In this document: positions 6,010-46,453 of the stretch, one piece after another | Position numbering within the stretch: position 1 is the first letter of the stretch | Layout: each line of letters starts with the position of its first letter | NCBI GenBank assembly: GCA_934167965.1 | Contig: CAKPMJ010000001.1 | Span: 108,487 to 172,486 of the forward strand | Reading direction: 5' to 3' | DNA length: 64,000 nt | From: an uncultured Clostridia bacterium | GTDB taxonomy: Bacteria; Bacillota; Clostridia; TANB77; CAG-508 | Notes under the pieces: generated by a model | Database searches by the model: none | What the model saw: only the letters and a program-made list of their open reading frames with translations | Told to the model about the DNA's origin: nothing | Program-made: the position numbers and the translations under genes

Positions 6010-6121
6010 AAAATATTCCTCCTCTTTTGACATTTATATTTAGATTATATACCAAAAATATAAATTTATACAATAGGAAAATTAAAGTTTTTAATTAATT
6101 TTAAAAGTAGATAATTGGTTG

Positions 6122-30305: not shown

Positions 30306-30458
30306 TATCAACGATTATATATTTGCAAATAAAGCAAAGGAAATTGTAGAAATGTTATCACTTGTGATAGCATTTCTTTTGCTTACACAAGTGATATGAG
30401 CTATTCCGATTTGTTGGATTATTGGATACAAAATATAAAATATAAGTAGACATAAATG

Positions 30459-30487
30459 TTGACTTTTATTAAAAAAAGTATTATAAT
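30459..30487 (+). promoter_or_regulatory. consensus sigma-A promoter of the 11-gene operon
   Basis: TTGACT (30459-30464), exactly 17-nt spacer, TATAAT (30482-30487). Confidence 0.7.
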
Positions 30488-30538
30488 ATTAGTATGTTTT
30501 GAAAAATAATAAATAGTAAAGATGTAAAAGATTGAAAA

Positions 30539-30584
30539 GGCATAAGGTATTCTAATGAGAAGTAAGTTACCTTATGCCATTTTT
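30539..30584 (+). terminator. leader hairpin/intrinsic terminator between the promoter and the first operon gene
   Basis: GGCATAAGGTA (30539-30549) pairs with TACCTTATGCC (30568-30578), followed by ATTTTT. It lies about 50 nt downstream of the -10 box and 25 nt upstream of the start codon. Confidence 0.6.
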
Positions 30585-30609
30585 ATAAATATTAAGGGGA
30601 TTGAAAAAT

Positions 30610-32007
30610 ATGGATTTAAAAAAACAGTTAGCTTTATATCAAGAAAAAGCAGAAAAATATTTGAAATTTGTAATTGAGAAATATGTTAAATTGAATTTTG
30701 AATTATATGATATTTTTGATAAAGAAACAGGTTCTGTATATTTAACTGATAAAGATAGTGTTCTATTAAATTCAAGAAATAAAGAACACTCTATTTTTAA
30801 AATTTTTGACATAGATTGTATAGAAAATCATAGAAAATATACATGCAATATGAATGACAGAATTTTATTAAGAGGACCTCTAAATTATTATTTTGGCTTT
30901 TGTTATTTAAGTGATTTAGATGTTACTAATGAACAAATATTAAATACTTTAGAATATGTTAAAAATTTTATCGTTATTAGTAAAGATGAAAAATATGAAA
31001 AATTTAATTATGAAAATATTTTAGATGTAAAAACTATTTTAGCAATTATAGATGTTATAAGAAATAGTATAATAATTAATTTGTTTTTTTGCCTGATGAA
31101 AGAGAATAATATAAAAGATATATATGTATATAAAGAAGAGGATAATGTTTTAGCTAATGAGTTTTATGAATTATTAAAAAAAGTTGAAAATAAAATTTAT
31201 GATATTGTTTTTGAACAAAGATACAGATTAGTAGAAGATTATGATGAAATAGTTGATGAATTTTTAAGATTACAAACAACATTAATTAAAGAAATAAAAG
31301 AAAATCAAGATGACTATAAAAATGATTTATATATAAGATACAGAAAATCAAGAGAAGCAGATTGTGTAATTGAAAATATAATGTGTATAAAATATGCTAT
31401 AGAAGAAATTTTAGAACAGAAAAAAGATATAATAAATAAAAATAATTTGTATGTACTAGGATTAAATTATGGTTCAATAGAGTTGATAGCTATTGTGGAT
31501 ATTATCCTAGAAAGAAAAGAAATAAAACATATATCTGGAAATATAATGAAAAAATTTAGAAAGGTATATGTAGAAGCAGTAAATAAACAAAATAACATAA
31601 TAAACAATAAAATAGAAAAAAATTCATACTATATAATTGTAGATGAAAACATAATGACAGGAAGAACTTTAGAAAATGCAAAAAACTATTTAGAAAACTT
31701 TAATTTGAAATCATTAGATACAATTATTATAAAGTATCCAACCATTGCTAGAATTAAAAATATAATTAATGTAGAAGAGAGTATTTACATAGAATTATTG
31801 AAAGAAATAAAGGGAATGTTAGTACCAACATACTATTCAAAGTTATGTGAGTATAGAAATGATTTTATATTTCCCTATGTGGATAAGTTGGGAACATTTG
31901 ATTTATATAAATATGAGCTTTTAAAAAACTTATATAAAAATGGAGAATATATAGAAGAATCAGCAGTTGGAAGAGTGGCAGGATACTATGAAAATATATT
32001 TTTTTAG
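30610..32007 (+). CDS. fusion protein: unknown helical N-terminal domain + type I phosphoribosyltransferase-like C-terminal domain
   Basis: The C-terminal YYIIVDENIMTGRTLENA matches the PRPP-binding loop pattern (four hydrophobic residues, D-[DE], x2, TG.T). The N-terminal 300 aa or so has no recognisable motif. AAGGGGA RBS before the ATG at 30610. Confidence 0.5.
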   Translation: MDLKKQLALYQEKAEKYLKFVIEKYVKLNFELYDIFDKETGSVYLTDKDSVLLNSRNKEHSIFKIFDIDCIENHRKYTCNMNDRILLRGPLNYYFGFCYLSDLDVTNEQILNTLEYVKNFIVISKDEKYEKFNYENILDVKTILAIIDVIRNSIIINLFFCLMKENNIKDIYVYKEEDNVLANEFYELLKKVENKIYDIVFEQRYRLVEDYDEIVDEFLRLQTTLIKEIKENQDDYKNDLYIRYRKSREADCVIENIMCIKYAIEEILEQKKDIINKNNLYVLGLNYGSIELIAIVDIILERKEIKHISGNIMKKFRKVYVEAVNKQNNIINNKIEKNSYYIIVDENIMTGRTLENAKNYLENFNLKSLDTIIIKYPTIARIKNIINVEESIYIELLKEIKGMLVPTYYSKLCEYRNDFIFPYVDKLGTFDLYKYELLKNLYKNGEYIEESAVGRVAGYYENIFF

Positions 32008-32016
32008 GAGATTGTA

Positions 32017-32595
32017 ATGAAATATGGTTTTGATTTAGATGACACACTTGCTGATACAGCTAGTGTTATAAATAAATATGCAATAAAGTTTGATAAAGAG
32101 TATCTTAATGGGAATGGAGACCTACAAGATATTAATAATTCGAAAAGTTATTATTATTTTGCAGAAGGATTAAATTGGAATAAAGAGAACATAGCAAAAT
32201 TTTTTGAAATATATTATTTAGACATACTTAAAGAAGTTAAAATAAAACCTTTTGTAAAAGAAACAATAAACAAATTGAAAAAAGAAAAAAATGAAGTTTA
32301 TATCATTACAGCAAGAAGGAAAAGAGAAGGTGAAATAGTAGAAAAAATTACAAATGAATGGTTAAATAATAACGGGATTTTGTATAATGAGTTATTTATA
32401 AACATTAAAGAAAAATCTAAAATAGTAAATCAATTAAAAATAGATATATTTATTGATGATAGTTATGAAAATTGTATAGATGTAAAAACAAATACAGATG
32501 CAAAAGTGTATATGTTAAGTACTAAATATAATACTGGAATTTTAGATAAGCAACTAGAGAGAATAAACAATATATATGAGTTAATTAGTAAATAA
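32017..32595 (+). CDS. HAD-superfamily phosphatase (NT5C-like)
   Basis: Motif I FDLDDTL, IITARR and IFIDDS. Same architecture as the ORF at 15049. Confidence 0.65.
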   Translation: MKYGFDLDDTLADTASVINKYAIKFDKEYLNGNGDLQDINNSKSYYYFAEGLNWNKENIAKFFEIYYLDILKEVKIKPFVKETINKLKKEKNEVYIITARRKREGEIVEKITNEWLNNNGILYNELFINIKEKSKIVNQLKIDIFIDDSYENCIDVKTNTDAKVYMLSTKYNTGILDKQLERINNIYELISK

Positions 32596-32610
32596 GAAGG
32601 GGAAATGTTT

Positions 32611-33360
32611 ATGAATATTGTGGTAACAGGAGGAAACGGAAAACTAGGACAGAATATAGTGGAAAGATTAAAAGAAAAGAATAATATTATGCTGCTTACA
32701 AGAAATATAGAAAAAACTAAAAAAATTTTTAATAAAAATAAAAATATTTATAATTATAAATGTGATTTAGAAAATAGTGAAGATATTAATAATGCGATTT
32801 TATCGATAATGCGAGATTTTAATAAAATAGATATAATAATAAATAATGCAGCAGTAGATATTGATCAGCCGATGATAGACACAACAAAAGAAGAATTTGA
32901 AAAAATTATGAAAATAAATTTATTTGCACCATATTATATATGCCAAAAGGTAATTCCTTATATGAAGAATATGAAATTTGGAAAAATAATAAATATATCT
33001 TCAGATTTGAGTGTTAGAACTGTAAAAAATGCAACAGAATATTCTATTTCAAAAGCAGGTTTAGATGCGTTGACAAGATCTATTGCAGTTGAATATGGAG
33101 AATATGGAATTAGAGCTAATACAATAAATATAAATGGAATGAAAGGATATACAACGAAAATAAATGAGATAACAGATATATTTAGCAAAAATGATGAAGA
33201 TTATGATGATTGGAAACAACCTAAAGAAAGAATACCTTTGAGTAGAAGAGGTACATTTGATGAATTTGTAGATGTAATTGAATTTTTATGTTCTGAAAAA
33301 TCTAATTATATTACTGGTGTTAATATACCAGTAGATGGTGGAATTATTGCAAAATTATAA
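32611..33360 (+). CDS. short-chain dehydrogenase/reductase (SDR)
   Basis: VTGGNGKLGQ (TGxxxGxG), NNAA, and catalytic S...YSISK (YxxxK). Confidence 0.85.
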   Translation: MNIVVTGGNGKLGQNIVERLKEKNNIMLLTRNIEKTKKIFNKNKNIYNYKCDLENSEDINNAILSIMRDFNKIDIIINNAAVDIDQPMIDTTKEEFEKIMKINLFAPYYICQKVIPYMKNMKFGKIINISSDLSVRTVKNATEYSISKAGLDALTRSIAVEYGEYGIRANTININGMKGYTTKINEITDIFSKNDEDYDDWKQPKERIPLSRRGTFDEFVDVIEFLCSEKSNYITGVNIPVDGGIIAKL

Positions 33361-33372
33361 AGGAGAATTAGT

Positions 33373-35130
33373 ATGTGTGGAATAGTAGGAAGATATAATA
33401 TTAACAAAAAGGTGGAAAAACATAATATAGAAGAAATGTTGAATTCTATAATACATAGAGGACCAGATGATAGTGGAATATGGGTAGAAAACAATATAGG
33501 ATTGGGTCATAGATTATTGAAAATACAAGATTTGTCAGAAAAATCAGTTCAACCATATAAATATCAAAACTTGGTAATGGCTTTTAATGGTGAAATATAT
33601 AATTATGAAGAATTAAAAAAAGAACTAAAGATAAAAGGCATACAATTTAATACTGTAGGAGATACAGAAGTTTTAATAAAGTGTTTTTATGAATGGGGTA
33701 TAGAGAAAACACTAAACAAGATAGAAGGTTGCTTTGCAATAGCATTATATGATAAAGAAAAAGAAAAGTTATATTTAATAAGGGATAGATTTGGAATTAA
33801 ACCTTTTCACTACTATAGAGATAATGATTGCATTTTATTTGGTTCAGAAATTAAAGCAATATTAAAAAATAAGGAAGTTAGAAGGGAATATAATAAAGAG
33901 AATGTTATGGTATCTCTAGCATGTAGATTATGGATGCATCCTAAATGGACTATGTTTAAAGATATTTATAATATTGAACCTGGTTCTTATATAGAAATAA
34001 GTAAAGATTCATTTGAACAAAAACAATATTATGAAATTAACTATGAAAAAGAAATATTAGATGAGAATGAAGCAATAGAAAGATTTGGAAAAGAATTTAA
34101 AGATTCTATTAATAAAAAATTAATATCTAAAGTACCAATTGCAGCATTTTTATCAGGTGGAATTGATAGTAGTTTATTATGCAAAACAGCACAAGATAAT
34201 TTAGAGGAACAATTAAACACTTATACAATTTGTTACGAAGATGATAATAACTTGGATTTAATACATGCAGAAGAATTAGCACAGAAGGAAAATTTTAAAC
34301 AAAATAACATACTAATAACAGAAGATTATTATACAATTGAAAATATAGACAAAGTAATACATTCAGTAGAGGAAATATTAATAGATAAAGTATATTTACC
34401 AGTATATTTTAATTATAAAGCAGCGAAAGATGATGGATTTACAGTTGTTTTAAATGGACAAGGTTCAGATGAAGTTTGGTTAGGATATATTTTTAATTGG
34501 AATATTTTTAATTATACTAAAGAAACAGATAGCATTGAAAAATTAATTAATGAATACTATATGCCTAATATTATATTTAAAGATAAATTTAGTGTTGAGT
34601 TTAAAGATAAGATAAAAGATACATTAAGAGAATATTTAGCAGATACTTTAACTAAATACTCTAAAGATAATGATAATGATAAATTGAATGAATATTCTAT
34701 CATGTCTATAAAGACAATTCTACATGATTTATTACTGCAAGAAGACAAATTAGCTATGGCCCATAGTGTAGAAAGTAGAGTTCCTTTTGTTGACAATCAT
34801 AGATTAGTAGAATTGTCAATGAAGATACCAGGAAAATTAAAAATTAAAGATGATAGAGAGAAATATATTTTAAGACAATATGGAAAAGATTTATTACCAG
34901 AAAGCATAATTAAAAGAAGAAAATATGCATTTCCAGAACCACCGAATGTTTATGATAAGAAAATAAGAAAAATTTGTGAAGAACACTGGAATGATATTAC
35001 AAAAAGTGTAATTGTAAATGAAATGATTGACAAACAATATTTAAAAGGAGCAGAGATGTTTACAGACAGAGAATTGTGGTGGATTTTAGTTTATTGGAGA
35101 TTTGAAAATATTTTCAAAATGGAGGTTTAA
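33373..35130 (+). CDS. asparagine synthase (glutamine-hydrolysing)-like amidotransferase
   Basis: MCGIVG N-terminal nucleophile, HRGPDD, GDTEVL, and the PP-loop AAFLSGGIDSS. 585 aa. Confidence 0.85.
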   Translation: MCGIVGRYNINKKVEKHNIEEMLNSIIHRGPDDSGIWVENNIGLGHRLLKIQDLSEKSVQPYKYQNLVMAFNGEIYNYEELKKELKIKGIQFNTVGDTEVLIKCFYEWGIEKTLNKIEGCFAIALYDKEKEKLYLIRDRFGIKPFHYYRDNDCILFGSEIKAILKNKEVRREYNKENVMVSLACRLWMHPKWTMFKDIYNIEPGSYIEISKDSFEQKQYYEINYEKEILDENEAIERFGKEFKDSINKKLISKVPIAAFLSGGIDSSLLCKTAQDNLEEQLNTYTICYEDDNNLDLIHAEELAQKENFKQNNILITEDYYTIENIDKVIHSVEEILIDKVYLPVYFNYKAAKDDGFTVVLNGQGSDEVWLGYIFNWNIFNYTKETDSIEKLINEYYMPNIIFKDKFSVEFKDKIKDTLREYLADTLTKYSKDNDNDKLNEYSIMSIKTILHDLLLQEDKLAMAHSVESRVPFVDNHRLVELSMKIPGKLKIKDDREKYILRQYGKDLLPESIIKRRKYAFPEPPNVYDKKIRKICEEHWNDITKSVIVNEMIDKQYLKGAEMFTDRELWWILVYWRFENIFKMEV

Positions 35131-35132
35131 TA

Positions 35133-36596
35133 GTGAAAAATATAATTGAAGAATGTTATTTGAATATGGAAAACAAAGAAAAAATCTTTGCAGTATATAG
35201 TGATATAAATTCAGAGGATAAGAAATTAACTTATGGAGAAATAAAAAATACTATAATTGCAATTAATAAAATTATAGGTGTAAATAATTATAAAAAAGCT
35301 ATAGGAATATTGATTGAGAATAAATTAGAATTTGTAAAAGCGTTTTTTGCTATACTATTTAATGGATATACTGTTGTTGGAATTGATCCTAAAATATCAG
35401 AAGAAGGATTAGATAAAATAATAGAAGATAATAAATTAACTACAATATTAACAAATGATAATAACATTTCAAAATTATCTAAATATAAAGATAAAAATAT
35501 TATAAATATAGAAAAAATTAATATACAAGTTAATGAAACAGAAAAATTACTTCCGATAGAAAGCAACTTTAATGATATAATAATAATTTCATATACTAGC
35601 GGAACGAGTGGCAAATTTTCAAAGGGAGTAAAATTAAGCAATGAAAATATATCATTTGTTTCAGAAGAATATAAAAAAGTATATAAATTAGATGAAAATT
35701 CTAAAATTATTACAGTGCTTCCGTTGTGGCATAACTATGCTATGTTTGCATGTCTAACAAGTGCAATGAGAGCAAATTCAGAAATAATAATTATGAATGA
35801 ATGGAACATGGATAATTTTATTTATATAAATAAAAAGTATAAACCAGATATTTTTCCAGGTTCCCCATATATGTACATAGATATTATAAATAGAGATTTG
35901 GATAGTATAGATATTTCTTCATTAAGAATTTGTGATTCAGGAGGAGATTCATTACCAATAGAATGTATAAAAAAATTCGAAGAAAAAACAAATGCTATAA
36001 TAACAGAAGGATATGGATTAACTGAAACAGCATCATTAACACATTTTAATTATTCAGCAAAGCAAAGGAAAATTGGAAGTCTAGGTAAATGTGTAACAAA
36101 TGTAGAATGTAAAATTACTGATTTGAATGAGAATATAATCGAAAATGGAAAATGGGGATTATTATGGATAAAAGGTCCAATGGTTTTTAAAGGCTATATA
36201 AAAAATGAAGAATTGACTAAAGAGGTTTTGGATGAAGATGGGTGGTTTAATACAAAAGATGTGGTAAAAGTAGATAATGAAGGATATTATTATATCGCAG
36301 GACGTTTATCCGATATTCAAAATTTTAGTCAGAATGATATAACGCTTAGAGAAATTGAAAACATATTATATAAATTTAATGGAATGAAAAGGGTATTTAT
36401 AAAAAAAGAATTTAACAAAGAAACTAAATTTTATTTTTATAATATATATGCTGTATTAAAAGATAAATATAATATAAGTCAATTATATGACTATATAAGA
36501 AAAGAATTAAATAATATAGTAGTAAATAATGTTGAAGTTTTAGATGAATTGCCAACAACAGGCACAGGAAAAATAAAAAGAAATAAATTAAAATAG
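35133..36596 (+). CDS. adenylate-forming enzyme (acyl-CoA synthetase/AMP-ligase superfamily)
   Basis: AMP-binding signature SYTSGTSGKFSKGV, EGYGLTET, and the C-terminal TGTGKIKRNKL. GTG start 7 nt after GGAGG. Confidence 0.85.
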   Translation: MKNIIEECYLNMENKEKIFAVYSDINSEDKKLTYGEIKNTIIAINKIIGVNNYKKAIGILIENKLEFVKAFFAILFNGYTVVGIDPKISEEGLDKIIEDNKLTTILTNDNNISKLSKYKDKNIINIEKINIQVNETEKLLPIESNFNDIIIISYTSGTSGKFSKGVKLSNENISFVSEEYKKVYKLDENSKIITVLPLWHNYAMFACLTSAMRANSEIIIMNEWNMDNFIYINKKYKPDIFPGSPYMYIDIINRDLDSIDISSLRICDSGGDSLPIECIKKFEEKTNAIITEGYGLTETASLTHFNYSAKQRKIGSLGKCVTNVECKITDLNENIIENGKWGLLWIKGPMVFKGYIKNEELTKEVLDEDGWFNTKDVVKVDNEGYYYIAGRLSDIQNFSQNDITLREIENILYKFNGMKRVFIKKEFNKETKFYFYNIYAVLKDKYNISQLYDYIRKELNNIVVNNVEVLDELPTTGTGKIKRNKLK

Positions 36597-36607
36597 AGGG
36601 GGAAAAA

Positions 36608-37669
36608 ATGGCTCATTGTAGAAAAAAATGTATAAGCATTTTACTTACAGATGATTGTAATTTAAGATGTAAATATTGTTATTGCGGAGAAGAAAGAAAA
36701 AAAGATAGTATTAATGTAAAATTTGTTAAACGTGCTATAAGTGATTTTAAAAATCAAGGTAATAAATTATTCGTAAGATTTTTTGGGAATGGAGAGCCCA
36801 CATTAGAATTCGAAAAAATAAAAGAAATAAATGATTATACCAAAAGTTTGGACAATGATGCAATATTTGAAATCCAAACAAACGGAACATTTAACAAAGA
36901 AATTGCTGAATGGATATCTGAACATATTGACATTGTTTGGATTTCATATGATGGAACAACGGAGACAAATGACTTTTATAGGGTTAATAAAAATAATGAT
37001 GGTGTTAGCAAAATAGTAGAGAACAATATAAAATTCTTAAATGGGAAAGTAAAAGAACTTGGAGTAAGAGCTACAATAGGTAATAAAAACCTATATAAAC
37101 AAATAGACATTGTTGATAAAATGGAAGAATTGGGGATTAAATATTTATATAGTGATTTAATGTTTGCTAATGTGGAAAATAAGTTATATTATGAAGATGA
37201 AATTAATCCACTTGAATATGCAAAAGAATTTTTGAAAGCAAGGAAATATGCAAAAGAAAAAGGTATTTATTATGGTTCTTTTTTTACAGTTAATTTTGAT
37301 GAAAAAACAAATATTTCTTGTAGAGCATGCATTCCAATGCCACATTTAACTGTAGATGGATATGTAAGTTGTTGTGATATGGGATATTCTGATGATAAAC
37401 TAAGTGAACTTTTATATGGAAAATATGATGAAAGTAAAGATATAATTATATATGATGAAGAAAAAATAAAAAATATAAAAGCAAGAACAGTAGACAATCT
37501 AAAAGAATGTAATGATTGTCCTGTTAAATATTATTGTGCAGGAGGCTGTATTGGTGAGGCAATTAATGAAAATGGAACTATATACAGTATAAAAAGTAAA
37601 AATTGTGAAGCTATAAAATATCTAGCTGAAGAATTGTTGCTAGAAAAAATACCTGCTTTACATCCATAG
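36608..37669 (+). CDS. radical SAM/SPASM domain protein
   Basis: Canonical CNLRCKYC (CX3CX2C), GNGEPTL, and the C-terminal SPASM cysteines CRAC...CC...CNDCPVKYYCAGGC. Confidence 0.85.
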   Translation: MAHCRKKCISILLTDDCNLRCKYCYCGEERKKDSINVKFVKRAISDFKNQGNKLFVRFFGNGEPTLEFEKIKEINDYTKSLDNDAIFEIQTNGTFNKEIAEWISEHIDIVWISYDGTTETNDFYRVNKNNDGVSKIVENNIKFLNGKVKELGVRATIGNKNLYKQIDIVDKMEELGIKYLYSDLMFANVENKLYYEDEINPLEYAKEFLKARKYAKEKGIYYGSFFTVNFDEKTNISCRACIPMPHLTVDGYVSCCDMGYSDDKLSELLYGKYDESKDIIIYDEEKIKNIKARTVDNLKECNDCPVKYYCAGGCIGEAINENGTIYSIKSKNCEAIKYLAEELLLEKIPALHP

Positions 37670-37686
37670 AAAGAAGGACAATGCAT

Positions 37687-38817
37687 ATGGAAAAATATAG
37701 AAATGAAAGTTATTGGAAAAAATATAATCCGGATTTGTATAAGACAATAGTAATTGTTTACAAAGATATAGAAGTTTTAGAATATATAGAGAGATATAAA
37801 AAAAATATAGATTATATATGTAATCCTAATGAAATTAAAATGTTAGAAAAATATGAAGCAATAATGAATATTCCATTGGAAAAAATAAAAGAATTGCCGA
37901 TTACTTACAATATAGTAGTTGATGAAATTAATGAATCAAACAATAATATGCTACAAGAATTAAAAAACATGAAATTTAAAATATATTGTTATACAGATGG
38001 AATACTGGAAAGATTAGATTATTTAGAACAGAAAATAGAAAAAAATATTTTAAAATATACAAACAGAATATCAATTGAATTATCTAATTTGTGTAACTAT
38101 TCTAGACAACACTTAAAATGTCCTTTAAACTCAACAAGTGTTGAAAAGAAAATATTATCTCTAAAAGTTATAGAAGGAATATTGAAAGAAATATCAGATT
38201 ATAATTTTGCGGGAATCATATCTTTTCATACATATAATGAACCATTAATTGATCCTAGACTTTTTTATATAATAGATATGACAAAAAAATATTGCCCAAA
38301 AGCAGAAGTTTTTATTTTGAGTAATGGATTTTATTTTAATCAAAATATAGCAAATGAATTAGTGGATATAGGTGTGGACCGTATAGATATTACAGCATAT
38401 TCGTTGAAGGAATTTGAAGAATTAAAAAAAATCAATGTAAAAATACCATATAGTGTTTTTCCGGCTTTTAAAATAACAGATTTAGATGATAGAAAAGATA
38501 TTTATAATAAAATAAATATTAGTGAAAAAATTAACAAACCATGCTATAATATATTAAATGATATGATTATAACATGTAATGGAAAAATTGATTTATGTTG
38601 TTTTGATTGGAAAAGAAAGTACTGTTTTGGTGATTTAGAAAAGCAAACTATAAAACAAATAATTGTGGAAACAGAGTTATATAAAAGTTTTATTGAATTG
38701 GCAAAAGGAGTAAGAAAAAAAGAAATTTGTCAAAATTGTATAAACTCAAAAACAAAACCAATTTTAGATTTTAATTTTAATGGTATAACATATAAAAGTA
38801 ATATTGGAGGAAATTAA
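37687..38817 (+). CDS. radical-SAM-fold-like/SPASM protein with degenerate N-terminal Cys motif
   Basis: ELSNLCNYSRQHLKCP (only C-x8-C) sits where CX3CX2C is expected, followed by a YNEPL(I) glycine-rich-equivalent region. C-terminal SPASM-like C...CNGKIDLCCFD...CFGDL...CQNC. Confidence 0.5.
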   Translation: MEKYRNESYWKKYNPDLYKTIVIVYKDIEVLEYIERYKKNIDYICNPNEIKMLEKYEAIMNIPLEKIKELPITYNIVVDEINESNNNMLQELKNMKFKIYCYTDGILERLDYLEQKIEKNILKYTNRISIELSNLCNYSRQHLKCPLNSTSVEKKILSLKVIEGILKEISDYNFAGIISFHTYNEPLIDPRLFYIIDMTKKYCPKAEVFILSNGFYFNQNIANELVDIGVDRIDITAYSLKEFEELKKINVKIPYSVFPAFKITDLDDRKDIYNKINISEKINKPCYNILNDMIITCNGKIDLCCFDWKRKYCFGDLEKQTIKQIIVETELYKSFIELAKGVRKKEICQNCINSKTKPILDFNFNGITYKSNIGGN

Positions 38818-38818
38818 A

Positions 38819-40201
38819 ATGAATGAATGTAAAATATTATTAATAGATCCTTTTTGTAAAAATCCTAAATATGAATCTCCTAATGCTAAATTAGGATATA
38901 CTAGTGCTATATTAGAAAAAAAAGGATATGAAACAGAAATATTAGACTTTTTAATTAATGAGATAGAAAATGTAAAAGAACAAGAATTTTTGAAATTGAA
39001 AAGACGTTTTTATGAACAAATTATAAAAGTAGCAAAAGAATACAAATTTGTATATATAAATTGTGAGTATGGATTATTAAAGACTTGCATTGATATAGCA
39101 AAAATGTTGCCTGAAAATATTGTTATAGTAGGAGGAACATTTACAAACTATTTATATGCTGCTAAACAATTAGATTTGAATAAATTAGAAGCAATTAATT
39201 ATATATCATTGGGTGATCCAGAATGTGATGTTATTAATATTGTTGAAAAGAAAGAAAAATATATAGTAGAAAAATATAAGGATATAAATCTTTACAATTC
39301 AGGAATGATTAATAAATTAGATGAAATTCCATATCCAAATTGGGGAAAATATGATTTATCAAAATATGATGGAAAATTATATTTAGTAGCTTCTAAAAGT
39401 TGTAGTTATAATAAGTGTAAATTTTGTGATGAAAGATTAATTTGGGGAAATAGATTTAGAATTAGAAATTATGAAAACATAATTGATGAAATCAAATATG
39501 ATATTGAAAATTATAATATTAATCAATTTTTCTTTTGGGATGCAAGTATTACAGCATATCCATATTTAAAAGAACTTTGTGAAAGAATAATTGAAGAAAA
39601 AATAGATTGTAAATGGACAGCATTGATAAGAGCAGATGAAATAACTGAAGAAATGGCAATATTAATGAAAAATGCTGGATGCTATTCTATTGAGATAGGA
39701 ATTGAATCATTAAATAATGAAGTTCTAGAATCAATGAATAAAGGTGAAGATGTTGCAACCATTGTTAAAGCTATTGAAATTTTGAAGAAAAATGATATTG
39801 TTGTTGAAGGTAGTTTTTTAATTGGATATTATGAAGATACAAAGGAAAGTATTTTAAATACAATTGAGGAATCTAAAAAACTAAATATAGATTTTTATAG
39901 ATGGCACAATTTAGAATTAGCGGCTGAATATTTATTAAATAATCCTAATGTAATTGAAGCAGAATGGCATGAATTAGATTTAAATTATCCAAATCAATTT
40001 TTAAATGAAAAAATTATAGGACATATAGCAGGATATTTTGATATGCATATTGTTTCAAAAATGGGAGATAAAAAGCCAAAAGAATATCCTAATATAAAAA
40101 TAGGAAATTTAACATTGATGGAAATTCATGACTTAACAAGAAAAGCAATAAATGAAACAGCAGATTTAATAACTGAAGAAGGTCATAATCCTTATATTTA
40201 G
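38819..40201 (+). CDS. B12-binding-domain (class B) radical SAM protein
   Basis: N-terminal Rossmann-like ILLIDPF...LGYTSAILEKKGYE..ILDF cobalamin-binding-type domain, then SKSCSYNKCKFCDE (CX4CX2C). GGAGGA RBS before the ATG at 38819. Confidence 0.7.
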   Translation: MNECKILLIDPFCKNPKYESPNAKLGYTSAILEKKGYETEILDFLINEIENVKEQEFLKLKRRFYEQIIKVAKEYKFVYINCEYGLLKTCIDIAKMLPENIVIVGGTFTNYLYAAKQLDLNKLEAINYISLGDPECDVINIVEKKEKYIVEKYKDINLYNSGMINKLDEIPYPNWGKYDLSKYDGKLYLVASKSCSYNKCKFCDERLIWGNRFRIRNYENIIDEIKYDIENYNINQFFFWDASITAYPYLKELCERIIEEKIDCKWTALIRADEITEEMAILMKNAGCYSIEIGIESLNNEVLESMNKGEDVATIVKAIEILKKNDIVVEGSFLIGYYEDTKESILNTIEESKKLNIDFYRWHNLELAAEYLLNNPNVIEAEWHELDLNYPNQFLNEKIIGHIAGYFDMHIVSKMGDKKPKEYPNIKIGNLTLMEIHDLTRKAINETADLITEEGHNPYI

Positions 40202-40209
40202 GAGGAAAT

Positions 40210-41104
40210 ATGGAAGAATATATTTTAGAAAAATATAAAGAATTTGAATTTAAAGAAATACAAAGTGGATATAGATGTAAAACATATCTAATAAGTAAAG
40301 ATGATAAAAAATATATTTATCAAATTTATTTTGGACACACAAAATATCAAGCAAATAAAAAAGAATATATTACAAAACTTATAAAAGAAAAAACGGAAAT
40401 AAATGAAATTCCTAATATTATCGAATTAGGAGAAAATAAAGAGTTTTCATATTTAGTATCAGAATTAAAGTCAGGGAAAGAACTAGCTTATAATGATAAA
40501 TTTGATTATGAAGTTTTTTATAAGGATTTAGCAAGAATATTAGCAAGAATTCATTCTGTTGAAATAGGTAGTAAATTTCGGATGGATAGGAATAAATGGA
40601 TTGGATGAAAAGGAATATTTTTATCAATATATAGAAGAGGATATAGATAGAAATATTGAAAGAATTAAAAAATATATTGAAGATAAGAATGTTTTAAAAA
40701 GTTTTATTAAAAAAGCTAATATGTCTGTGGAAAAATTGAAGATTATTAGTAATATAAAGCCCGTAATATGTTGGTATGACATTAATCCAAATAATATTTT
40801 AGTGAATGATAATTCTTCTATTACAGGATTTTTAGATCCGGGTGGGGCTAGATTTGCACCAAAAGAATGGGATTTAGCTTTTATTAAGATGGATTTATGC
40901 CAAAATAATAAAGAATATGAATTTTTTAAACAGATATATTCAAAACAAAAACCTATAAATGAAGAATTACTAGAAATATTGACAGTAGTAGTTGAACTTG
41001 ATGATATAGCATTTCAATTAGAAGCAAAAGTTAAATTGCCAATTGCTTTTGAATCTAATTTTAAAGCAGAAATAGAGTATATTCAAAAAGAATATTTAAA
41101 TTAA
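40210..41104 (+). pseudogene. APH/choline-kinase-family phosphotransferase, split by a +1 frameshift (window 40568-40605)
   Basis: ORF 40210..40608 is the N-lobe and ORF 40601..41104 is the C-lobe (WYDINPNNILV Brenner-like motif, FLDPGG). Removing one base at TTT-CGG (40576-40581) reads ...GSKFGWIGINGLDEKEYF continuously. Confidence 0.65.
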
Positions 41105-41120
41105 TTAAAAGAGGAATTTT

Positions 41121-41717
41121 ATGAAAATAAGTAAATTAGAGGGAATTAAATTGTTATCAGAATTAAATATGCCAACAGTAAAATTGTTAGATATAAGACA
41201 AATACTAGAGGGAAAAGAACCATTGAAAGAAGGAATTAGTGTCAGATTATCTCCTAAAAGTAAATTGGTGAAATGGAATGTTGGTCTACCATCAATAAAT
41301 AGAAGAACCAATTTAGATGAGATAAGAGAATTTGTTGAACAACATCAAAATCAATATATAGTTTTTGCACATAAGAGTGTTATACCAGAATCAATAGGAA
41401 CGTTATCAAAGCTAGAAGATTGTCTTGCAATTGAAACTTATAAAAGTTATGAAGATAAACATGATGAAATAATAGATAATAGAATTATTGTGCCAATGTT
41501 AGGAGACAAAATGCATATTAGTCATATGGAAATGTTAAGAGAAGATGAACAGGATTTTAAAAATTTCAGAAAGGTTTTAATGCATTTAAAAGGAATTCCT
41601 TTTAGTCAATATGAAATGGAATATGTTATTGAAAACGGAGATGTTGTGTTTATGGATTTCACAGTTTCAAATAATAGAGAATATCAAGTATATAAAGAAT
41701 TGAATGAAGGAAGATAA
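41121..41717 (+). CDS. hypothetical protein (no recognised domain)
   Basis: 198-aa ORF with an AGAGGA RBS, tightly packed between two kinase genes. Confidence 0.5.
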   Translation: MKISKLEGIKLLSELNMPTVKLLDIRQILEGKEPLKEGISVRLSPKSKLVKWNVGLPSINRRTNLDEIREFVEQHQNQYIVFAHKSVIPESIGTLSKLEDCLAIETYKSYEDKHDEIIDNRIIVPMLGDKMHISHMEMLREDEQDFKNFRKVLMHLKGIPFSQYEMEYVIENGDVVFMDFTVSNNREYQVYKELNEGR

Positions 41718-41718
41718 A

Positions 41719-42669
41719 ATGAATGAAGAACTAAAAGAACTCATAGAGAGGGCATTTAATCAAAAAATAGTTGATATACAAGAAATAAGTGGAGGATGGC
41801 TTACAGAAAAGTGGAAGGTACAATTTAAAGAATTATCAATTATGTTAAAAATAATAGAACATAAAAAAATAATTAGGAGAGACATTAATATTGAATTAGC
41901 AGCCAATTTACTAAAAACAGCTTATAATTTTGGTATAAAATGTCCCTGTATATATAAAATAAATGATAAATTAATAAATTATAATGAGAATAATAATCCG
42001 ATAGTAGTCATAGAATATTTAGAAGAAACTTTTTTAAAGGATCATACTAATATAAATAATGAAGATATTTTTTTAATAGGTGCTGAAATAGCTAAAATGA
42101 GAAAATGTTTTAATGAAATAAGTATAAAACAAAAAATTGATTATTCTGAACTAATTCAAAGAATGCATAAAGAATATGATAAAAGATTAAATGAAGGAAA
42201 GAATGAAATTTATTTACAAGATGTTCTTAAACAGAAAAGAATACTTGACGTATTAGGTTATGATTTTTTTGAAAACTTAGAAATTGGATATTGTCATGGA
42301 GATTTATCACAAGATAATATATTATTTGATAAGAATGGTTTTAAGGCTTTAGTAGATTTTGAAATTGCTAATGTATCTTTTATATTAAGAGATGTTGCGA
42401 GAATATTTTTAACATTTTGCCTAGATAATAATGGAAGAATAAATAAAGAATTGTTAACAAATTTTGTAGAAGGGTATAATAGCATTTCTAAATTAACGAT
42501 TAAAGATTTAATAAATGGGATAAAAATTTTATGGTGTTTAGAAGTAGGGTTGTGGATTAAAGAAGCATATTATATAGACAATACTCCTGAAAAAGTAAAA
42601 AAATTTATGTGTGAAATAAATTGGATAACAGATAATTGGTTTGATTTAGAAAATATTATAAAAATATAG
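41719..42669 (+). CDS. APH/homoserine-kinase-II-like phosphotransferase
   Basis: Catalytic loop CHGDLSQDNILF and the metal-binding VDFE motif. GAAGGAAG RBS before the ATG at 41719. Confidence 0.75.
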   Translation: MNEELKELIERAFNQKIVDIQEISGGWLTEKWKVQFKELSIMLKIIEHKKIIRRDINIELAANLLKTAYNFGIKCPCIYKINDKLINYNENNNPIVVIEYLEETFLKDHTNINNEDIFLIGAEIAKMRKCFNEISIKQKIDYSELIQRMHKEYDKRLNEGKNEIYLQDVLKQKRILDVLGYDFFENLEIGYCHGDLSQDNILFDKNGFKALVDFEIANVSFILRDVARIFLTFCLDNNGRINKELLTNFVEGYNSISKLTIKDLINGIKILWCLEVGLWIKEAYYIDNTPEKVKKFMCEINWITDNWFDLENIIKI

Positions 42670-42671
42670 AT

Positions 42672-42700
42672 AAAGGGATTAGTTATTAGCTAATCCCTTT
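42672..42700. terminator. bidirectional terminator closing the operon
   Basis: AAAGGGATTAG-TTATTAG-CTAATCCCTTTT between convergent genes. It overlaps the stop codon of the PHP gene. Confidence 0.65.
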
Positions 42701-43523: not shown

Positions 43524-43647
43524 AGGTAAATCCCCCTTCTATAAAATGTAATTTACATAAATATTATATATTTTTTGCCTAAAAATGTCAATATTAAACA
43601 TTGATTATAGTGCAAAAACATTATATTTAGCTTTTTTTTGGAAAAAG

Positions 43648-43676
43648 TTGACATAAACGAGAAAAGATGGTATAAT
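43648..43676 (+). promoter_or_regulatory. sigma-A promoter upstream of argS
   Basis: TTGACA (43648-43653), 17-nt spacer, TATAAT (43671-43676). Confidence 0.65.
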
Positions 43677-46434: not shown

Positions 46435-46453
46435 ATTGTAAGGGGGGAGAAAA

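What the first reader, a model, noticed from the sequence alone, without database searches (positions are those of the whole stretch)
30459..42700. Eleven-gene soluble-enzyme operon (PRTase fusion, HAD, SDR, AsnB-like, adenylating enzyme, three radical-SAM-type proteins, two APH kinases, one orphan) with no recognisable product class
Seen in sequence:
- There are 11 same-strand ORFs with gaps of only 1-17 nt.
- One consensus promoter (30459-30487) lies upstream and one bidirectional terminator (42672-42700) downstream.
- The block is inserted between secA and argS.
- None of the proteins shows a signal peptide or TM helix.
- I find no glycosyltransferase, nucleotidyltransferase, transporter, regulator, PKS/NRPS module or short precursor ORF.

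Established knowledge:
- Class B (B12) rSAMs are usually C-methyltransferases (GenK, Fom3).
- SPASM/twitch rSAMs include BtrN in aminocyclitol biosynthesis.
- AsnB-like and adenylating enzymes make amide or amidine bonds.
- APH-fold kinases phosphorylate aminoglycosides, choline or homoserine-like hydroxyls.

Inference: this is a cytoplasmic pathway building or tailoring a phosphorylated, amidated, methylated small molecule (nucleoside- or aminocyclitol-like). The gene combination does not match any pathway I can name.
Basis: partly seen in the sequence, partly recalled or inferred. Interest (0 to 1): 0.85.

Follow-up and report, generated by a model that had tools for sequence, protein, structure and literature searches.

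The report
Orphan enzyme operon tied to ArgRS
A real, tightly packed operon of soluble enzymes in an uncultured human-gut Clostridia bacterium belongs to a rare, undescribed family of gene clusters that always sit beside an aminoacyl-tRNA synthetase gene (here arginyl-tRNA synthetase), which suggests that it makes a ribose-phosphate-based small molecule aimed at, or built with, that enzyme.

Summary
The operon is real (30610-42669, + strand). It has a promoter-like site, a leader hairpin, strong ribosome-binding sites and a shared terminator. It has 12 mechanical ORFs rather than 11, because one kinase gene is split by a one-base frame change.

The block travels as a unit in about ten related metagenomic loci. 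No Pfam, NCBIfam, PADLOC, PDB or literature search matched a characterised pathway.

- **Hallmark protein.** The first protein is a ~250-aa domain with no family or fold match, fused to a type I phosphoribosyltransferase. Its family has only 71 representative clusters among 1.84 billion proteins.
- **Link to aminoacyl-tRNA synthetase (aaRS) genes.** Clusters built around this protein lie next to aaRS genes:
  - ArgRS here, of two unrelated types;
  - TyrRS, LeuRS and IleRS in cousin clusters;
  - a plasmid-borne MetRS in Bacillus cereus.
  - In two cousins a TyrRS/TrpRS-like catalytic domain is fused to the hallmark protein.
- **True extent.** The cluster also includes a PHP 3'-phosphatase-like gene and probably argS plus two downstream genes.

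Best reading (about 0.45): a ribose-phosphate or nucleoside-type metabolite functionally coupled to ArgRS, either as an inhibitor or made with Arg-tRNA/Arg-AMP. Against the classical version, the adjacent ArgRS looks like the ordinary housekeeping copy and the operon has no exporter.

The frame change sits at the cluster's only CGG (rare Arg) codon.

The parts
30459..30487 (+). Promoter-like site TTGACT-17-TATAAT
   Evidence: It matches 11 of 12 positions. It lies after the secA terminator-like hairpin at 30348-30377.
30533..30590 (+). 5' leader hairpin followed by a U-run (terminator- or attenuator-like)
   Evidence: Folding gives dG -19.5 kcal/mol, z -2.7. Stem-loops of different sequence sit at the same place upstream of g1 in L002, L004, L009 and L010 (read by eye, not tested statistically).
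30610..32007 (+). g1: novel ~250-aa N-domain fused to a type I PRTase; the hallmark protein of the family
   Evidence: - Pfam Pribosyltran matches residues 257-376 only.
- The AF2 model has pLDDT 82. Foldseek matches OPRT/HGPRT for the C-terminal half only.
- The N-domain modelled alone has pLDDT 84 and no PDB fold match (best E 0.24).
- There are 40 homologues among 5.8e9 proteins and 71 representative clusters among 1.84e9.
32017..32595 (+). g2: HAD phosphatase (DxDxT motif, weak 5'-nucleotidase similarity)
   Evidence: Pfam HAD_2 scores 1.5e-7 and 5-nucleotidase 7.6e-4. The gene is present in all cluster types.
32605..33360 (+). g3: classical SDR oxidoreductase
   Evidence: Pfam adh_short_C2 scores 3.6e-47. 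No NCBIfam equivalog cut-off is reached.
33373..35130 (+). g4: AsnB-type glutamine-dependent amidotransferase (Cys at position 2 of the ORF, i.e. N-terminal once the initiator Met is removed)
   Evidence: TIGR01536 scores 437 bits against a cut-off of 267. The gene is 56-74% identical across all Arg-type loci.
35133..36596 (+). g5: ANL adenylate-forming enzyme, acyl/aryl-CoA-ligase-like
   Evidence: Pfam AMP-binding scores 1.1e-52. The nearest PDB sequences are 4-coumarate-CoA ligases, luciferases and MenE. It carries a 'WHNYAM' motif and a C-terminal GK, read from the sequence.
36608..37669 (+). g6: radical SAM/SPASM enzyme, PapB/CteB-like, without an RRE domain
   Evidence: The NCBIfam PapB model scores 131.9 bits against a cut-off of 340. 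PDB CteB 5wgg scores 1.6e-16 and aligns from its residue 97.
37681..38817 (+). g7: BtrN-like radical-SAM-type protein with an atypical CX5HX2C motif; an accessory gene
   Evidence: - PDB BtrN 4m7s scores 2.5e-19.
- The motif CNYSRQHLKC is conserved in L002 at 71% overall identity.
- The gene is absent in L001, L004, L009 and L025-L027.
38819..40201 (+). g8: large radical SAM enzyme, BchE/PhpK-like (possibly cobalamin-dependent)
   Evidence: Pfam Radical_SAM scores 1.4e-19. NCBIfam BchE and PhpK hits score about 101 bits, far below their cut-offs. The PDB hits AprD4 and OxsB are weak.
40210..41104 (+). g9: APH/fructosamine-kinase-like kinase, split by a +1 frame change at UUU CGG A (40576-40582)
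   Evidence: - Pfam APH and Fructosamin_kin hits fall on the two halves.
- The gene is intact (299 aa) in L002 and L014.
- The same insertion site occurs in L004, L005, L009 and L025-L027.
- The 132-aa ORF is seen on hundreds of contigs.
41121..41717 (+). g10: 198-aa protein with no family; present in type A clusters only
   Evidence: It has no Pfam, NCBIfam, PADLOC or PDB match. It is 49-54% identical in L002, L004 and L009.
41719..42669 (+). g11: APH-fold kinase, homoserine-kinase-II-like
   Evidence: Pfam APH scores 7.6e-13. NCBIfam homoserine kinase scores 71.8 bits against a cut-off of 271. PDB 2ppq scores 4.7e-7.
42672..42700 (.). Hairpin shared by the operon and the convergent PHP gene (bidirectional terminator-like)
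   Evidence: The scan reports 11 pairs with a loop of 7.
42690..43523 (-). PHP-family phosphoesterase, 3',5'-nucleoside-bisphosphate phosphatase / RNase AM-like; a cluster member
   Evidence: - The nearest PDB sequences are 3e0f, 2yb1 and 7ug9. NCBIfam NF041577 scores 154 bits against a cut-off of 400.
- The gene is always found with the cluster: convergent in type A, internal in type B.
- It is absent next to argS in cluster-less relatives.
43563..43676 (.). Divergent pair of perfect-consensus promoter-like sites for PHP (-) and argS (+)
   Evidence: Both sites match 12 of 12 positions.
43747..45516 (+). argS: full-length arginyl-tRNA synthetase, the conserved neighbour of the cluster
   Evidence: - Pfam finds all three ArgRS domains.
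- argS is adjacent in L001, L007/L008/L010/L030 and L014, and 7 kb away in L004.
- The enzyme is lineage-typical.
45583..47650 (+). d1 (283 aa, weak TrpF/PRAI-like) and d2 (398 aa, no family); possibly co-transcribed with argS; tentative cluster members
   Evidence: - No terminator-like site lies between argS and these genes.
- d1 hits the NCBIfam phosphoribosylanthranilate isomerase model at E 2.8e-7, far below its cut-off.
- The same two genes follow argS in L014/L015 (by gene size and position; no sequence comparison was run) but not in cluster-less L012.

Best explanation
**What is shown**
- The 12 ORFs form one conserved operon.
- Its invariant core is g1 (unknown N-domain + type I PRTase), a HAD phosphatase, an APH/FN3K-like kinase, an AsnB-type amidotransferase, an ANL adenylating enzyme and an SDR, with a PHP 3'-phosphatase-like gene alongside in most loci.
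- The core is always found next to argS.
- The g1 family as a whole is tied to aaRS genes of varying specificity.

**What is inferred**
The locus is the arginine-specific member of an undescribed family of biosynthetic clusters. These would make ribose-phosphate- or nucleoside-based, amino-acid-related metabolites functionally coupled to one aaRS. A likely route has five steps:
1. g1 uses PRPP to ribosylate a base or amine.
2. HAD, PHP and the APH kinases remove and add phosphates on the ribose. This may include phospho-masking of a toxic end product.
3. The SDR changes the oxidation state of a hydroxyl. A PLP aminotransferase does related work in type B clusters, and BtrN-like or SPASM radical SAM enzymes in type A.
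4. The ANL enzyme and the AsnB homologue build an amide or amidine side chain that imitates arginine or arginyl-adenylate.
5. The remaining radical SAM enzymes tailor the product.

The product then either inhibits ArgRS in competitors, or is assembled from Arg-AMP or Arg-tRNA supplied by the neighbouring ArgRS. Co-directional placement upstream of argS could also couple production to target over-expression.
For: **The operon is a conserved unit**
- The same gene order is found at 44-98% identity in L001, L002/L014, L004/L005, L009 and L025-L027.
- A reduced type B cluster occurs in L007/L008/L010/L030.

**argS adjacency holds whatever the ArgRS type**
- The window, L014 and L001 carry a 589-aa type (80% and 64% identical to the window's).
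- L004 and L010 carry a 568-aa type that is 31% identical to the window's and 72% identical between the two.
- By pairwise identities (no trees were built), the cluster proteins and the ArgRS enzymes group the loci differently.
- Cluster-less relatives (ArgRS 75% and 64% identical) have neither the cluster nor PHP beside argS.

**The g1 family is linked to other aaRS genes**
- P0255 and P0259 fuse N-domain + PRTase to a class Ic aaRS-like domain with PHIGT/PHLGT (HIGH-type) and KMSKS motifs. They sit next to a bona fide TyrRS (TIGR00234, 385 bits) or a B3_4-TyrRS fusion.
- L021 is next to LeuRS.
- L023 is next to IleRS, and L032 is next to a class Ia IleRS-like gene.
- Bacillus cereus plasmid pRML02 has a g1-like cluster with ABC exporter genes beside a plasmid-borne metG.
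- If about 5.5% of random loci had an aaRS within two genes, six or more of eight evaluable cluster types would be expected with p about 7e-7. This is rough, the types are not fully independent, and the count of six of eight was set before L032 and L035 were found.

**The chemistry is nucleotide-centred**
- The PRTase fold is supported by Foldseek.
- PHP is closest to 3',5'-nucleoside bisphosphate phosphatases.
- The HAD has weak 5'-nucleotidase similarity.

**Precedent**
- aaRS genes in biosynthetic clusters mark either inhibitors or tRNA-dependent steps (bioRxiv 10.64898/2025.12.02.691738).
- AcmD/AcmF in ascamycin and SbzA in SB-203208 combine both roles (PMC12945691).
Against: - The window's ArgRS looks like the ordinary vertically inherited enzyme. 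Its homologues form a continuous series from 99% to 60% identity in many uncultured Clostridia.
- A cluster-less relative's ArgRS (P0153) is as similar to some cluster-bearing ones as they are to each other.
- No residue is shared by five cluster-linked ArgRS and rare elsewhere.
- L023's IleRS is likewise lineage-typical.
- The window operon has no exporter, regulator or recognisable immunity acetyltransferase.
- In L004, argS is 7 kb away with unrelated genes in between.
- L011/L033 relatives (HAD-N-domain-PRTase plus a PfkB-SIS fusion) have no aaRS nearby.
- No enzyme activity, product or transcript has been observed. The PRTase acceptor is unknown.
- Copy number of argS in these genomes could not be checked.
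Confidence: 0.45

Rival explanations
1. The cluster makes a non-canonical amino acid (an arginine analogue) or a product containing one. The neighbouring aaRS matters because it must discriminate against, edit or supply that analogue, not because it is the target of an adenylate mimic.
For: - tRNA-deacylase and editing functions mark clusters for non-canonical amino acids (PMC13149037).
- One cousin carries a TyrRS fused to a PheRS-type B3_4 domain. That B3_4 is an editing domain is from my own knowledge.
- After a generic PLP aminotransferase subfamily (NF005744, 268.7 bits), the type B aminotransferase's next named hit is an arginine-modifying PLP enzyme (GntC, 133 bits), and the beta-methylarginine aminotransferase model also hits further down. 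All are below cut-off.
- g11 weakly resembles homoserine kinases.
Against: - The invariant core is PRTase, nucleotidase-like HAD and a 3'-phosphatase-like PHP. This points to a ribose-phosphate scaffold rather than a free amino acid.
- The aminotransferase is absent from type A clusters.
- No cluster-specific ArgRS substitutions were found.
Confidence: 0.15
2. This is a nucleoside-like or aminocyclitol-like secondary metabolite with no functional tie to ArgRS. On this reading, adjacency to aaRS genes reflects insertion hot spots or chance, as the first reader implicitly assumed.
For: - The adjacent ArgRS and IleRS are lineage-typical.
- Mobile-element genes flank several loci: recombinases in L002, L016 and L011, and an integrase/Mob/excisionase set in L026.
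- Cluster genes 95-98% identical occur in contigs whose SecA is only 62-73% identical, which suggests mobility.
Against: - Five different aaRS specificities lie beside clusters of one rare protein family.
- Two unrelated ArgRS types neighbour the same cluster.
- In two relatives an aaRS-like catalytic domain is fused to the hallmark protein itself.
- No integrase travels consistently with the cluster.
Confidence: 0.15
3. This is a RiPP maturation cluster (ranthipeptide- or sactipeptide-like) whose precursor peptide is encoded elsewhere or was missed.
For: g6 is closest to PapB and CteB thioether-forming maturases. AsnB homologues include lasso-peptide cyclases. PqqD and Rce1-like genes occur near class C cousins.
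Against: - No conserved short ORF lies in or next to the operon.
- There is no RRE or PqqD domain, no leader peptidase and no transporter in the window.
- g6 scores 131.9 bits against a cut-off of 340.
- Type B clusters lack all radical SAM genes yet keep the core and argS.
Confidence: 0.05
4. This is a housekeeping-type pathway, not an antagonistic metabolite. Candidates are synthesis of a cofactor or modified nucleotide, a tRNA or protein modification, or repair or catabolism of ribosylamine or Amadori-type adducts.
For: - The cluster appears fixed in the species. Cluster proteins and ArgRS are seen on similar numbers of contigs (about 350-670).
- There is no exporter.
- g9 is fructosamine-kinase-like.
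- Distant relatives pair the hallmark protein with a PfkB-SIS fusion, which resembles fructoselysine kinase/deglycase (resemblance from my own knowledge; domains).
- d1 is weakly TrpF-like, i.e. similar to an Amadori isomerase.
Against: - The distribution is extremely patchy: relatives in 3 of 185,579 species representatives.
- GC is lower than in the flanks.
- Gene content varies, and some loci are mobile or plasmid-borne with ABC exporters. These are hallmarks of accessory metabolism.
Confidence: 0.12

Closest known systems
Ascamycin (acm) and SB-203208/altemicidin (sbz) clusters: aaRS-inhibitor pathways with a cluster-encoded aaRS or aaRS-like enzyme
   Same: An aaRS gene of one specificity sits with the biosynthetic genes. 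aaRS-like catalytic domains take part in biosynthesis (AcmF, SbzA), as in the P0255/P0259 fusions. Ascamycin has a nucleoside scaffold (PMC12945691).
   Different: - Those clusters are in Streptomyces, carry an extra resistant aaRS copy and use sulfamate or sulfonamide chemistry.
- Here the ArgRS looks like the sole ordinary copy.
- The hallmark N-domain-PRTase has no counterpart there.
- No sulfur-activating enzymes were seen.
Tiarins (trifolitoxin family): aaRS inhibitors whose clusters carry aaRS genes of varying specificity
   Same: One cluster family is paired with different aaRS genes, so the neighbouring aaRS predicts the target. ArgRS is the target of trifolitoxin itself (bioRxiv 10.64898/2025.12.02.691738).
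   Different: Tiarins are ribosomal peptides with precursor genes. In every case the aaRS was a duplicate. Here no precursor was found, and duplication is unproven or unlikely for ArgRS and IleRS.
Butirosin BtrN (radical SAM dehydrogenase of aminocyclitol biosynthesis)
   Same: g7 aligns with BtrN over about 230 residues, including the auxiliary-cluster region (E 2.5e-19).
   Different: - The canonical CX3CX2C motif is replaced by CX5HX2C.
- No other butirosin or 2-deoxystreptamine genes are present.
- g7 is dispensable in near-identical clusters.
PapB/CteB thioether-forming radical SAM/SPASM maturases
   Same: g6 shares the radical SAM and SPASM architecture and gives its best family and PDB hits here.
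   Different: It scores far below the family cut-off. There is no RRE and no precursor peptide. The substrate is probably a small molecule.
PRTase -> Amadori isomerase logic of tryptophan/histidine biosynthesis, and ketosamine kinases (FN3K, FrlD/FrlB)
   Same: The locus combines a type I PRTase domain, a weakly TrpF-like neighbour (d1) and a fructosamine-kinase-like kinase (g9). Remote relatives carry a PfkB-SIS fusion.
   Different: All similarities are below the family thresholds. The resemblance to these pathways is a lead from my own knowledge and was not tested.

Membership tests
aaRS-inhibitor (aminoacyl-adenylate-mimic) biosynthetic cluster | A gene for one aaRS is physically linked to the cluster | tested here: met
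   argS lies within 0-1.1 kb in the window, L014, L001 and L007/L008/L010/L030, and 7 kb away in L004. Cousin clusters are linked to TyrRS, LeuRS, IleRS and MetRS.
aaRS-inhibitor (aminoacyl-adenylate-mimic) biosynthetic cluster | The linked aaRS is an additional, resistant copy distinct from the housekeeping enzyme | tested here: inconclusive
   - The ArgRS is lineage-typical and shows no cluster-specific substitutions.
- L023's IleRS is also typical.
- Copy number per genome could not be counted.
- Only the B. cereus MetRS is clearly accessory, being plasmid-borne.
aaRS-inhibitor (aminoacyl-adenylate-mimic) biosynthetic cluster | Enzymes that build a nucleoside or nucleotide scaffold and join an amino-acid-like acyl group to it | tested here: inconclusive
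   The right domains are present: PRTase, HAD, PHP, kinases, ANL and AsnB, plus an aaRS-like domain in cousins. No substrate or activity is known.
aaRS-inhibitor (aminoacyl-adenylate-mimic) biosynthetic cluster | An export or uptake-disguise (Trojan-horse) function | tested here: not met
   The window operon has no transporter and no membrane protein. Cousins have ABC, MFS or YgjV genes.
RiPP (ranthipeptide/sactipeptide) cluster | A precursor peptide gene and an RRE-containing or family-level radical SAM maturase | tested here: not met
   No conserved short ORF was found. g6 scores 131.9 bits against a PapB cut-off of 340 and lacks the N-terminal RRE.
2-Deoxystreptamine aminoglycoside (butirosin-type) pathway | DOI synthase, paired aminotransferase and glycosyltransferases alongside BtrN | tested here: not met
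   Only a BtrN-like protein is present. None of the other domains was found. g7 is absent from most related clusters.
Class B (cobalamin-dependent) radical SAM methyltransferase (g8) | An N-terminal cobalamin-binding domain plus a radical SAM core at family level | tested here: inconclusive
   Pfam reports only Radical_SAM. NCBIfam BchE, PhpK and BzaD alignments include the N-terminal part but score 80-101 bits against cut-offs of 450-600. The best PDB hit, AprD4, is weak.
Anti-phage defence system (PADLOC models, viperin-like) | A match to a defence-system protein model beyond generic domain similarity | tested here: not met
   Only generic radical SAM similarity to pVip was found (E 5e-12 over about 110 residues). 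Seven of the ten proteins searched had no hit, g1 and both kinases among them; the HAD, AsnB and g8 gave only marginal hits. No viral contig or phage record carries g1.
Programmed +1 ribosomal frameshift (prfB/Ty1-type) in g9 | A slip codon that can re-pair in +1, followed by a slowly decoded 0-frame codon, conserved across lineages | tested here: inconclusive
   - The site is UUU CGG A. UUU to UUC re-pairing is possible.
- CGG is the only such codon among 3,996 cluster codons, and occurs once in 12,158 flank codons.
- The site is conserved in the window, L025-L027 and L004/L005. L009 has the variant UAU CGG.
- The split ORF is fixed in the population.
- Against: L004 and L009 have an ATG in the +1 frame just upstream, so a two-polypeptide kinase is possible. 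The CGG string also follows from the Phe-Gly coding of the +1 frame.

The most novel reading that the evidence does not exclude
The window carries the arginine member of a previously unrecognised family of natural products made by gut Firmicutes and at least one Bacillus cereus plasmid.
- **Scaffold.** These would be ribose-phosphate or nucleoside antimetabolites built around a new enzyme (unknown N-domain + PRTase).
- **Specificity.** The amino-acid specificity is swapped between clusters and can be read from the neighbouring aaRS gene: Arg, Tyr, Leu, Ile or Met.
- **Feedback.** In the Arg-type cluster, the self-protecting kinase is produced through a +1 frameshift at the only CGG (rare arginine) codon. 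Falling Arg-tRNA charging, the expected effect of the product, would therefore switch on immunity.
Probability: 0.25. Interest if true: 0.92.

Novelty: new variant of a known kind. Interest (0 to 1): 0.78.

Why it matters
- **A new antibiotic source.** aaRS inhibitors are validated antibiotics (mupirocin is one). Almost all known natural ones come from actinomycetes or proteobacteria. A family from human-gut Clostridia, with the target readable from the neighbouring gene, would offer a genome-mining rule, new scaffolds and a new enzyme fold to characterise.
- **A new kind of association.** If instead the neighbouring aaRS is the ordinary housekeeping copy, the link is of a kind not described before. 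It could mean production coupled to target expression, or use of aa-AMP or aa-tRNA as a building block.
- **A testable regulatory device.** The frame change at the only rare arginine codon, in a cluster tied to ArgRS, suggests a regulator that senses tRNA charging.
- **An experimental route.** The Bacillus cereus plasmid homologue gives a culturable entry point.

Tried and rejected
1. **Defence system.** PADLOC gave only generic radical SAM hits. No viral or phage occurrence was found. Rejected.
2. **RiPP.** No precursor ORF or RRE was found. Kept only as a 0.05 rival.
3. **Riboswitch or known RNA in the leader or elsewhere.** Rfam at gathering thresholds found only two tRNAs in the window.
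4. **Fold of the g1 N-domain.** Two AlphaFold models were confident. Foldseek against the PDB gave nothing below E 0.24 for the N-domain.
5. **ArgRS as a resistance-adapted paralogue.** An alignment of 71 ArgRS sequences showed no cluster-specific residue. Not supported.
6. **PHP-argS as a generic conserved gene pair.** Rejected, because cluster-less relatives lack it.
7. **d1 as TrpF.** Pfam and PDB sequence searches were negative. Only a sub-threshold NCBIfam hit was found. Kept as a lead.
8. **Broad family scans of metagenome contigs.** Diverse alignments failed because no conserved stretch was available.
9. **Literature.** Eight full-text searches found no description of this gene combination, of 'PRTase-CE', or of the B. 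cereus plasmid cluster.
10. **Phosphonate pathway.** g8 has a weak PhpK-like hit, but no PEP mutase is present. Rejected.
11. **Not possible with these tools.** antiSMASH and MIBiG comparison could not be run.

Full report
**1. The observation**

The window is AT-rich (26.8% GC). Between secA (27540-30305) and argS (43747-45516) it carries a + strand run of ORFs from 30610 to 42669.
- With the ATG starts at 30610, 38819 and 41719, the gaps are 1-16 nt. Every gene but one has a GGAG/GAGG-type ribosome-binding site.
- The promoter-like site at 30459-30487 matches 11 of 12 positions. The hairpin at 42672-42700 is the only terminator-like site at the 3' end. Promoter-like matches as a class are no more frequent than in shuffled sequence.
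  - g1, PRTase fusion
  - g2, HAD
  - g3, SDR
  - g4, AsnB-type amidotransferase (TIGR01536, 437 bits)
  - g5, ANL adenylating enzyme
  - g6, radical SAM/SPASM
  - g7, BtrN-like
  - g8, large BchE/PhpK-like radical SAM
  - g9 and g11, two APH-fold kinases
  - g10, orphan
- There is no transporter, regulator, glycosyltransferase or PKS/NRPS domain. There is no membrane segment either. The one hydrophobic stretch in g1 falls in a modelled helix, H137-162.
- The cluster is 23.5% GC against 27-28% in the flanks.

Three corrections apply:
- There are 12 mechanical ORFs, because g9 is split.
- A terminator-like hairpin lies in the 5' leader.

**2. The block travels as a unit, with variations**

g1 has only 40 homologues among 5.8 billion proteins, nearly all from metagenomes. 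Only 3 of 185,579 species-representative genomes gave a relative. That scan is pattern-based, so this is a lower bound. A metagenome scan places close relatives in human-gut assemblies.

Neighbourhoods fall into two types:
- **Type A (same order as the window).**
  - L002/L014 are 61-82% identical to the window. L004/L005/L009 are 55-80% identical. L025-L027 are 80-98% identical. L001 is 44-66% identical.
  - g7 is missing from all of these except L002/L014, even from loci 95-98% identical to the window.
  - L001 lacks g10 and g11. It adds a CatA-like acyltransferase, a carrier protein, a PaaK-like ligase and a second ANL enzyme.
- **Type B (L007/L008/L010/L030).** These keep g1, HAD, SDR, AsnB, ANL and one APH kinase. 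They add a PLP aminotransferase and have no radical SAM gene.

A PHP-family gene accompanies the cluster in all but L001. It is convergent downstream in type A and internal in type B. It resembles 3',5'-nucleoside bisphosphate phosphatases and RNase AM.

**3. argS is the conserved partner**

- In every locus with enough flank, argS lies next to the cluster. It follows directly in L001 and type B, lies after PHP in the window and L014, and is 7 kb upstream in L004.
- The ArgRS enzymes are of two types, only about 30% identical to each other. The window, L014 and L001 carry a 589-aa type. L004 and L010 carry a 568-aa type.
- By pairwise identities (no trees were built), the cluster proteins place L004 closer to the window than L001 is, whereas the ArgRS enzymes group the loci the other way. 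So the adjacency is not simply inherited with one argS gene.
- Relatives with ArgRS 75% and 64% identical, but without the cluster at that site, have neither PHP nor any cluster gene beside argS.
- secA adjacency is not conserved. L002 has recombinase fragments upstream. L026 has an integrase/Mob/excisionase element between secA and the cluster.
- In the window and L014, argS is followed by the same two genes, judged by gene size and position. No terminator-like site intervenes in the window. These are d1, which gives a weak phosphoribosylanthranilate-isomerase hit (E 2.8e-7, far below cut-off), and d2, which has no family.

**4. The wider family of g1 points the same way**

- The N-terminal ~250 residues of g1 have no Pfam or NCBIfam match. 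A confident model (pLDDT 84) finds no PDB fold.
- A profile of this domain finds 71 representative clusters among 1.84 billion proteins. Architectures vary: alone with the PRTase, with N-terminal extensions, fused to a Cof-type HAD, or fused to a class Ic aaRS-like catalytic domain. The last occurs in P0255 and P0259, which carry PHIGT/PHLGT (HIGH-type) and KMSKS motifs.
- Their neighbourhoods:

| Locus | Neighbouring aaRS | Other notable genes |
|---|---|---|
| L016 | bona fide TyrRS | APH kinase, g1-type fusion (P0255), CatA-like acyltransferase, HAD, YgjV |
| L018 | TyrRS fused to a B3_4 domain | YgjV, g1-type fusion (P0259), CatA-like acyltransferase, 203-aa gene without Pfam at the HAD position |
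| L021 | LeuRS | class C cluster |
| L023 | IleRS | class C cluster |
| L032 | class Ia IleRS-like | class C cluster |
| L035 (B. cereus HN001 plasmid pRML02) | metG, divergently oriented | ABC exporter genes |
| L011, L033 | none nearby | g1-like fusion paired with a PfkB-SIS fusion |

- A rough binomial estimate for six of eight evaluable types gives p about 7e-7, assuming a 5.5% chance per locus. That count was set before L032 and L035 were found. The types are not independent, so this is an order-of-magnitude argument only.
- Published precedent says that aaRS genes inside biosynthetic clusters mark either aaRS inhibitors or tRNA-dependent steps. One enzyme can do both, as with AcmD/AcmF and SbzA.

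**5. What argues against the textbook version**

- The window's ArgRS has a continuous series of homologues from 99% down to 60% identity in uncultured Clostridia and Oscillospiraceae.
- A cluster-less relative's ArgRS is as similar to some cluster-bearing ones as they are to each other. No residue is specific to five cluster-linked ArgRS when compared with 51 others.
- L023's IleRS is equally ordinary.
- The window operon has no exporter.

A dedicated resistant paralogue is therefore not supported for the Arg-type cluster. Genome-wide copy number could not be checked.

Alternatives that keep the link:
- ArgRS supplies Arg-AMP or Arg-tRNA.
- Co-directional placement upstream of argS couples production to target over-expression.
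- The kinases and PHP keep the product masked inside the cell.

All three are inference.

**6. Mechanism proposed**

The domains and conservation are shown. The chemistry is inferred.
1. g1 transfers ribose-5-phosphate from PRPP to a base or amine.
2. The HAD, PHP and APH-fold enzymes edit the phosphates.
3. The SDR alters a ribose or side-chain hydroxyl. An aminotransferase or radical SAM dehydrogenase-type enzymes do related work in the variants.
4. The ANL enzyme and the AsnB homologue form an amide or amidine. The ANL enzyme is 4CL/MenE-like rather than NRPS-type (and sequence).
5. g6, g8 and the dispensable g7 tailor the product.

The product is most probably an arginine- or arginyl-adenylate-like ribose-phosphate compound.

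**7. The split kinase**

- Relative to the intact gene (GAA TTC GGA TGG in L002/L014), the window, L025-L027 and L004/L005 read TTT C GG(A/T) TGG. L009 reads TAT C GGA TGG.
- The conserved kinase motif FGWIG continues in the +1 frame.
- The 0-frame codon at the junction is CGG. It is the only CGG among 3,996 cluster codons, and occurs once in 12,158 codons of the flanking genes.
- The 132-aa upstream ORF is seen on hundreds of independent contigs, so it is not a sequencing error.
- The downstream fragment is the only cluster ORF without a strong ribosome-binding site.
- UUU to UUC re-pairing followed by a starved rare codon is the classical setting for +1 frameshifting. 'Hungry codon' frameshifting is reviewed in PMC5009743. 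Slippage at UUU-pyrimidine sites is from my own knowledge.

Two caveats apply:
- L004 and L009 have an ATG in the +1 frame just before the motif, so a two-piece kinase is possible.
- The CGG string also follows from Phe-Gly coding in the +1 frame.

A rare arginine codon at this spot, in a cluster tied to ArgRS, is worth testing.

**8. Comparison and novelty**

- No defining feature set of RiPP, aminoglycoside, phosphonate or defence systems is met (see membership tests).
- The closest known kind is an aaRS-linked natural-product cluster such as ascamycin, SB-203208, albomycin or the tiarins. The hallmark enzyme, the enzyme set, the hosts and the apparently housekeeping status of the partner aaRS all differ.
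- I rate it a new variant of a known kind, with interest 0.78.
- The most novel reading still open is a specificity-swapping family of ribose-phosphate antimetabolites with a tRNA-charging-sensitive frameshift switch. I give that about 0.25.

Noticed in passing
window 40576-40582 (within g9, 40210-41104): The kinase gene is split by a one-base insertion at UUU CGG A, the only CGG codon in the cluster.
- The same site is found in L025-L027 and L004/L005, with a variant in L009.
- The gene is intact in L002/L014.
- The split ORF is fixed on hundreds of contigs.
This could be a +1 programmed frameshift at a hungry arginine codon, or a two-piece kinase.
   Followed up: partly
window 37681-38817 (g7): The BtrN-like protein has CX5HX2C (CNYSRQHLKC) in place of the radical SAM CX3CX2C motif, and this is conserved in L002. 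The gene is present or absent among otherwise 95-98% identical clusters; it is missing in L025/L026.
   Followed up: partly
window 30533-30590; the same position in L002, L004, L009, L010: A stem-loop plus U-run sits just upstream of the g1 ribosome-binding site, downstream of the promoter-like site. Related loci have stem-loops of different sequence at the same place. This suggests attenuation control. No Rfam family matches.
   Followed up: partly
window 43563-43676: Two perfect 12/12 sigma-70-type consensus sites lie back to back between PHP and argS. The argS leader of about 70 nt looks too short for a T-box (typical T-box length is from my own knowledge).
   Followed up: no
window 45583-47650 (d1, d2): Two genes without Pfam families follow argS, with no terminator-like site between. 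They recur after argS in L014/L015 (by gene size and position) but not in the cluster-less L012. d1 gives a sub-threshold phosphoribosylanthranilate isomerase hit.
   Followed up: partly
L025, L026 (human-gut contigs): Cluster genes are 95-98% identical to the window, but SecA on the same contigs is only 62-73% identical and PHP is 89-90% identical. L026 carries an integrase/Mob/excisionase element between secA and the cluster. This suggests recent horizontal exchange of the cluster.
   Followed up: partly
L035 = Bacillus cereus HN001 plasmid pRML02, 99.7-115.0 kb: This is a cultured-organism relative. A plasmid-borne metG lies next to an aminotransferase, a g1-like protein, a CatA-like acyltransferase, a HAD, an ACP, a PaaK-like ligase, a PLP decarboxylase, an ANL enzyme and three ABC transporter genes. 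All but the transporters and generic enzymes are annotated as hypothetical.
   Followed up: partly
L018 545-2479: A TyrRS carries an N-terminal B3_4 domain (the PheRS-beta editing-type domain). It lies next to a g1-family fusion that itself carries a TyrRS/TrpRS-like catalytic domain.
   Followed up: no
L011 8867-13329; L033; L034: A two-gene module recurs at 46-54% identity, and in L011 it sits in a mobile context (transposase, recombinase). It consists of a HAD-N-domain-PRTase fusion (826 aa) and a PfkB kinase-SIS fusion. It has no aaRS nearby. Its function is unknown.
   Followed up: no
L004 8742-10001: A 1.26-kb stretch upstream of g1 has no convincing ORF. It was not examined for RNA genes.
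   Followed up: no
window 4933-6033 (-): A 2,4-diaminopentanoate-dehydrogenase-like gene lies in a local GC-rich, reverse-skew patch. It is 26% identical to an unassigned gene inside the class C cluster L023 (12214-13119).
   Followed up: no
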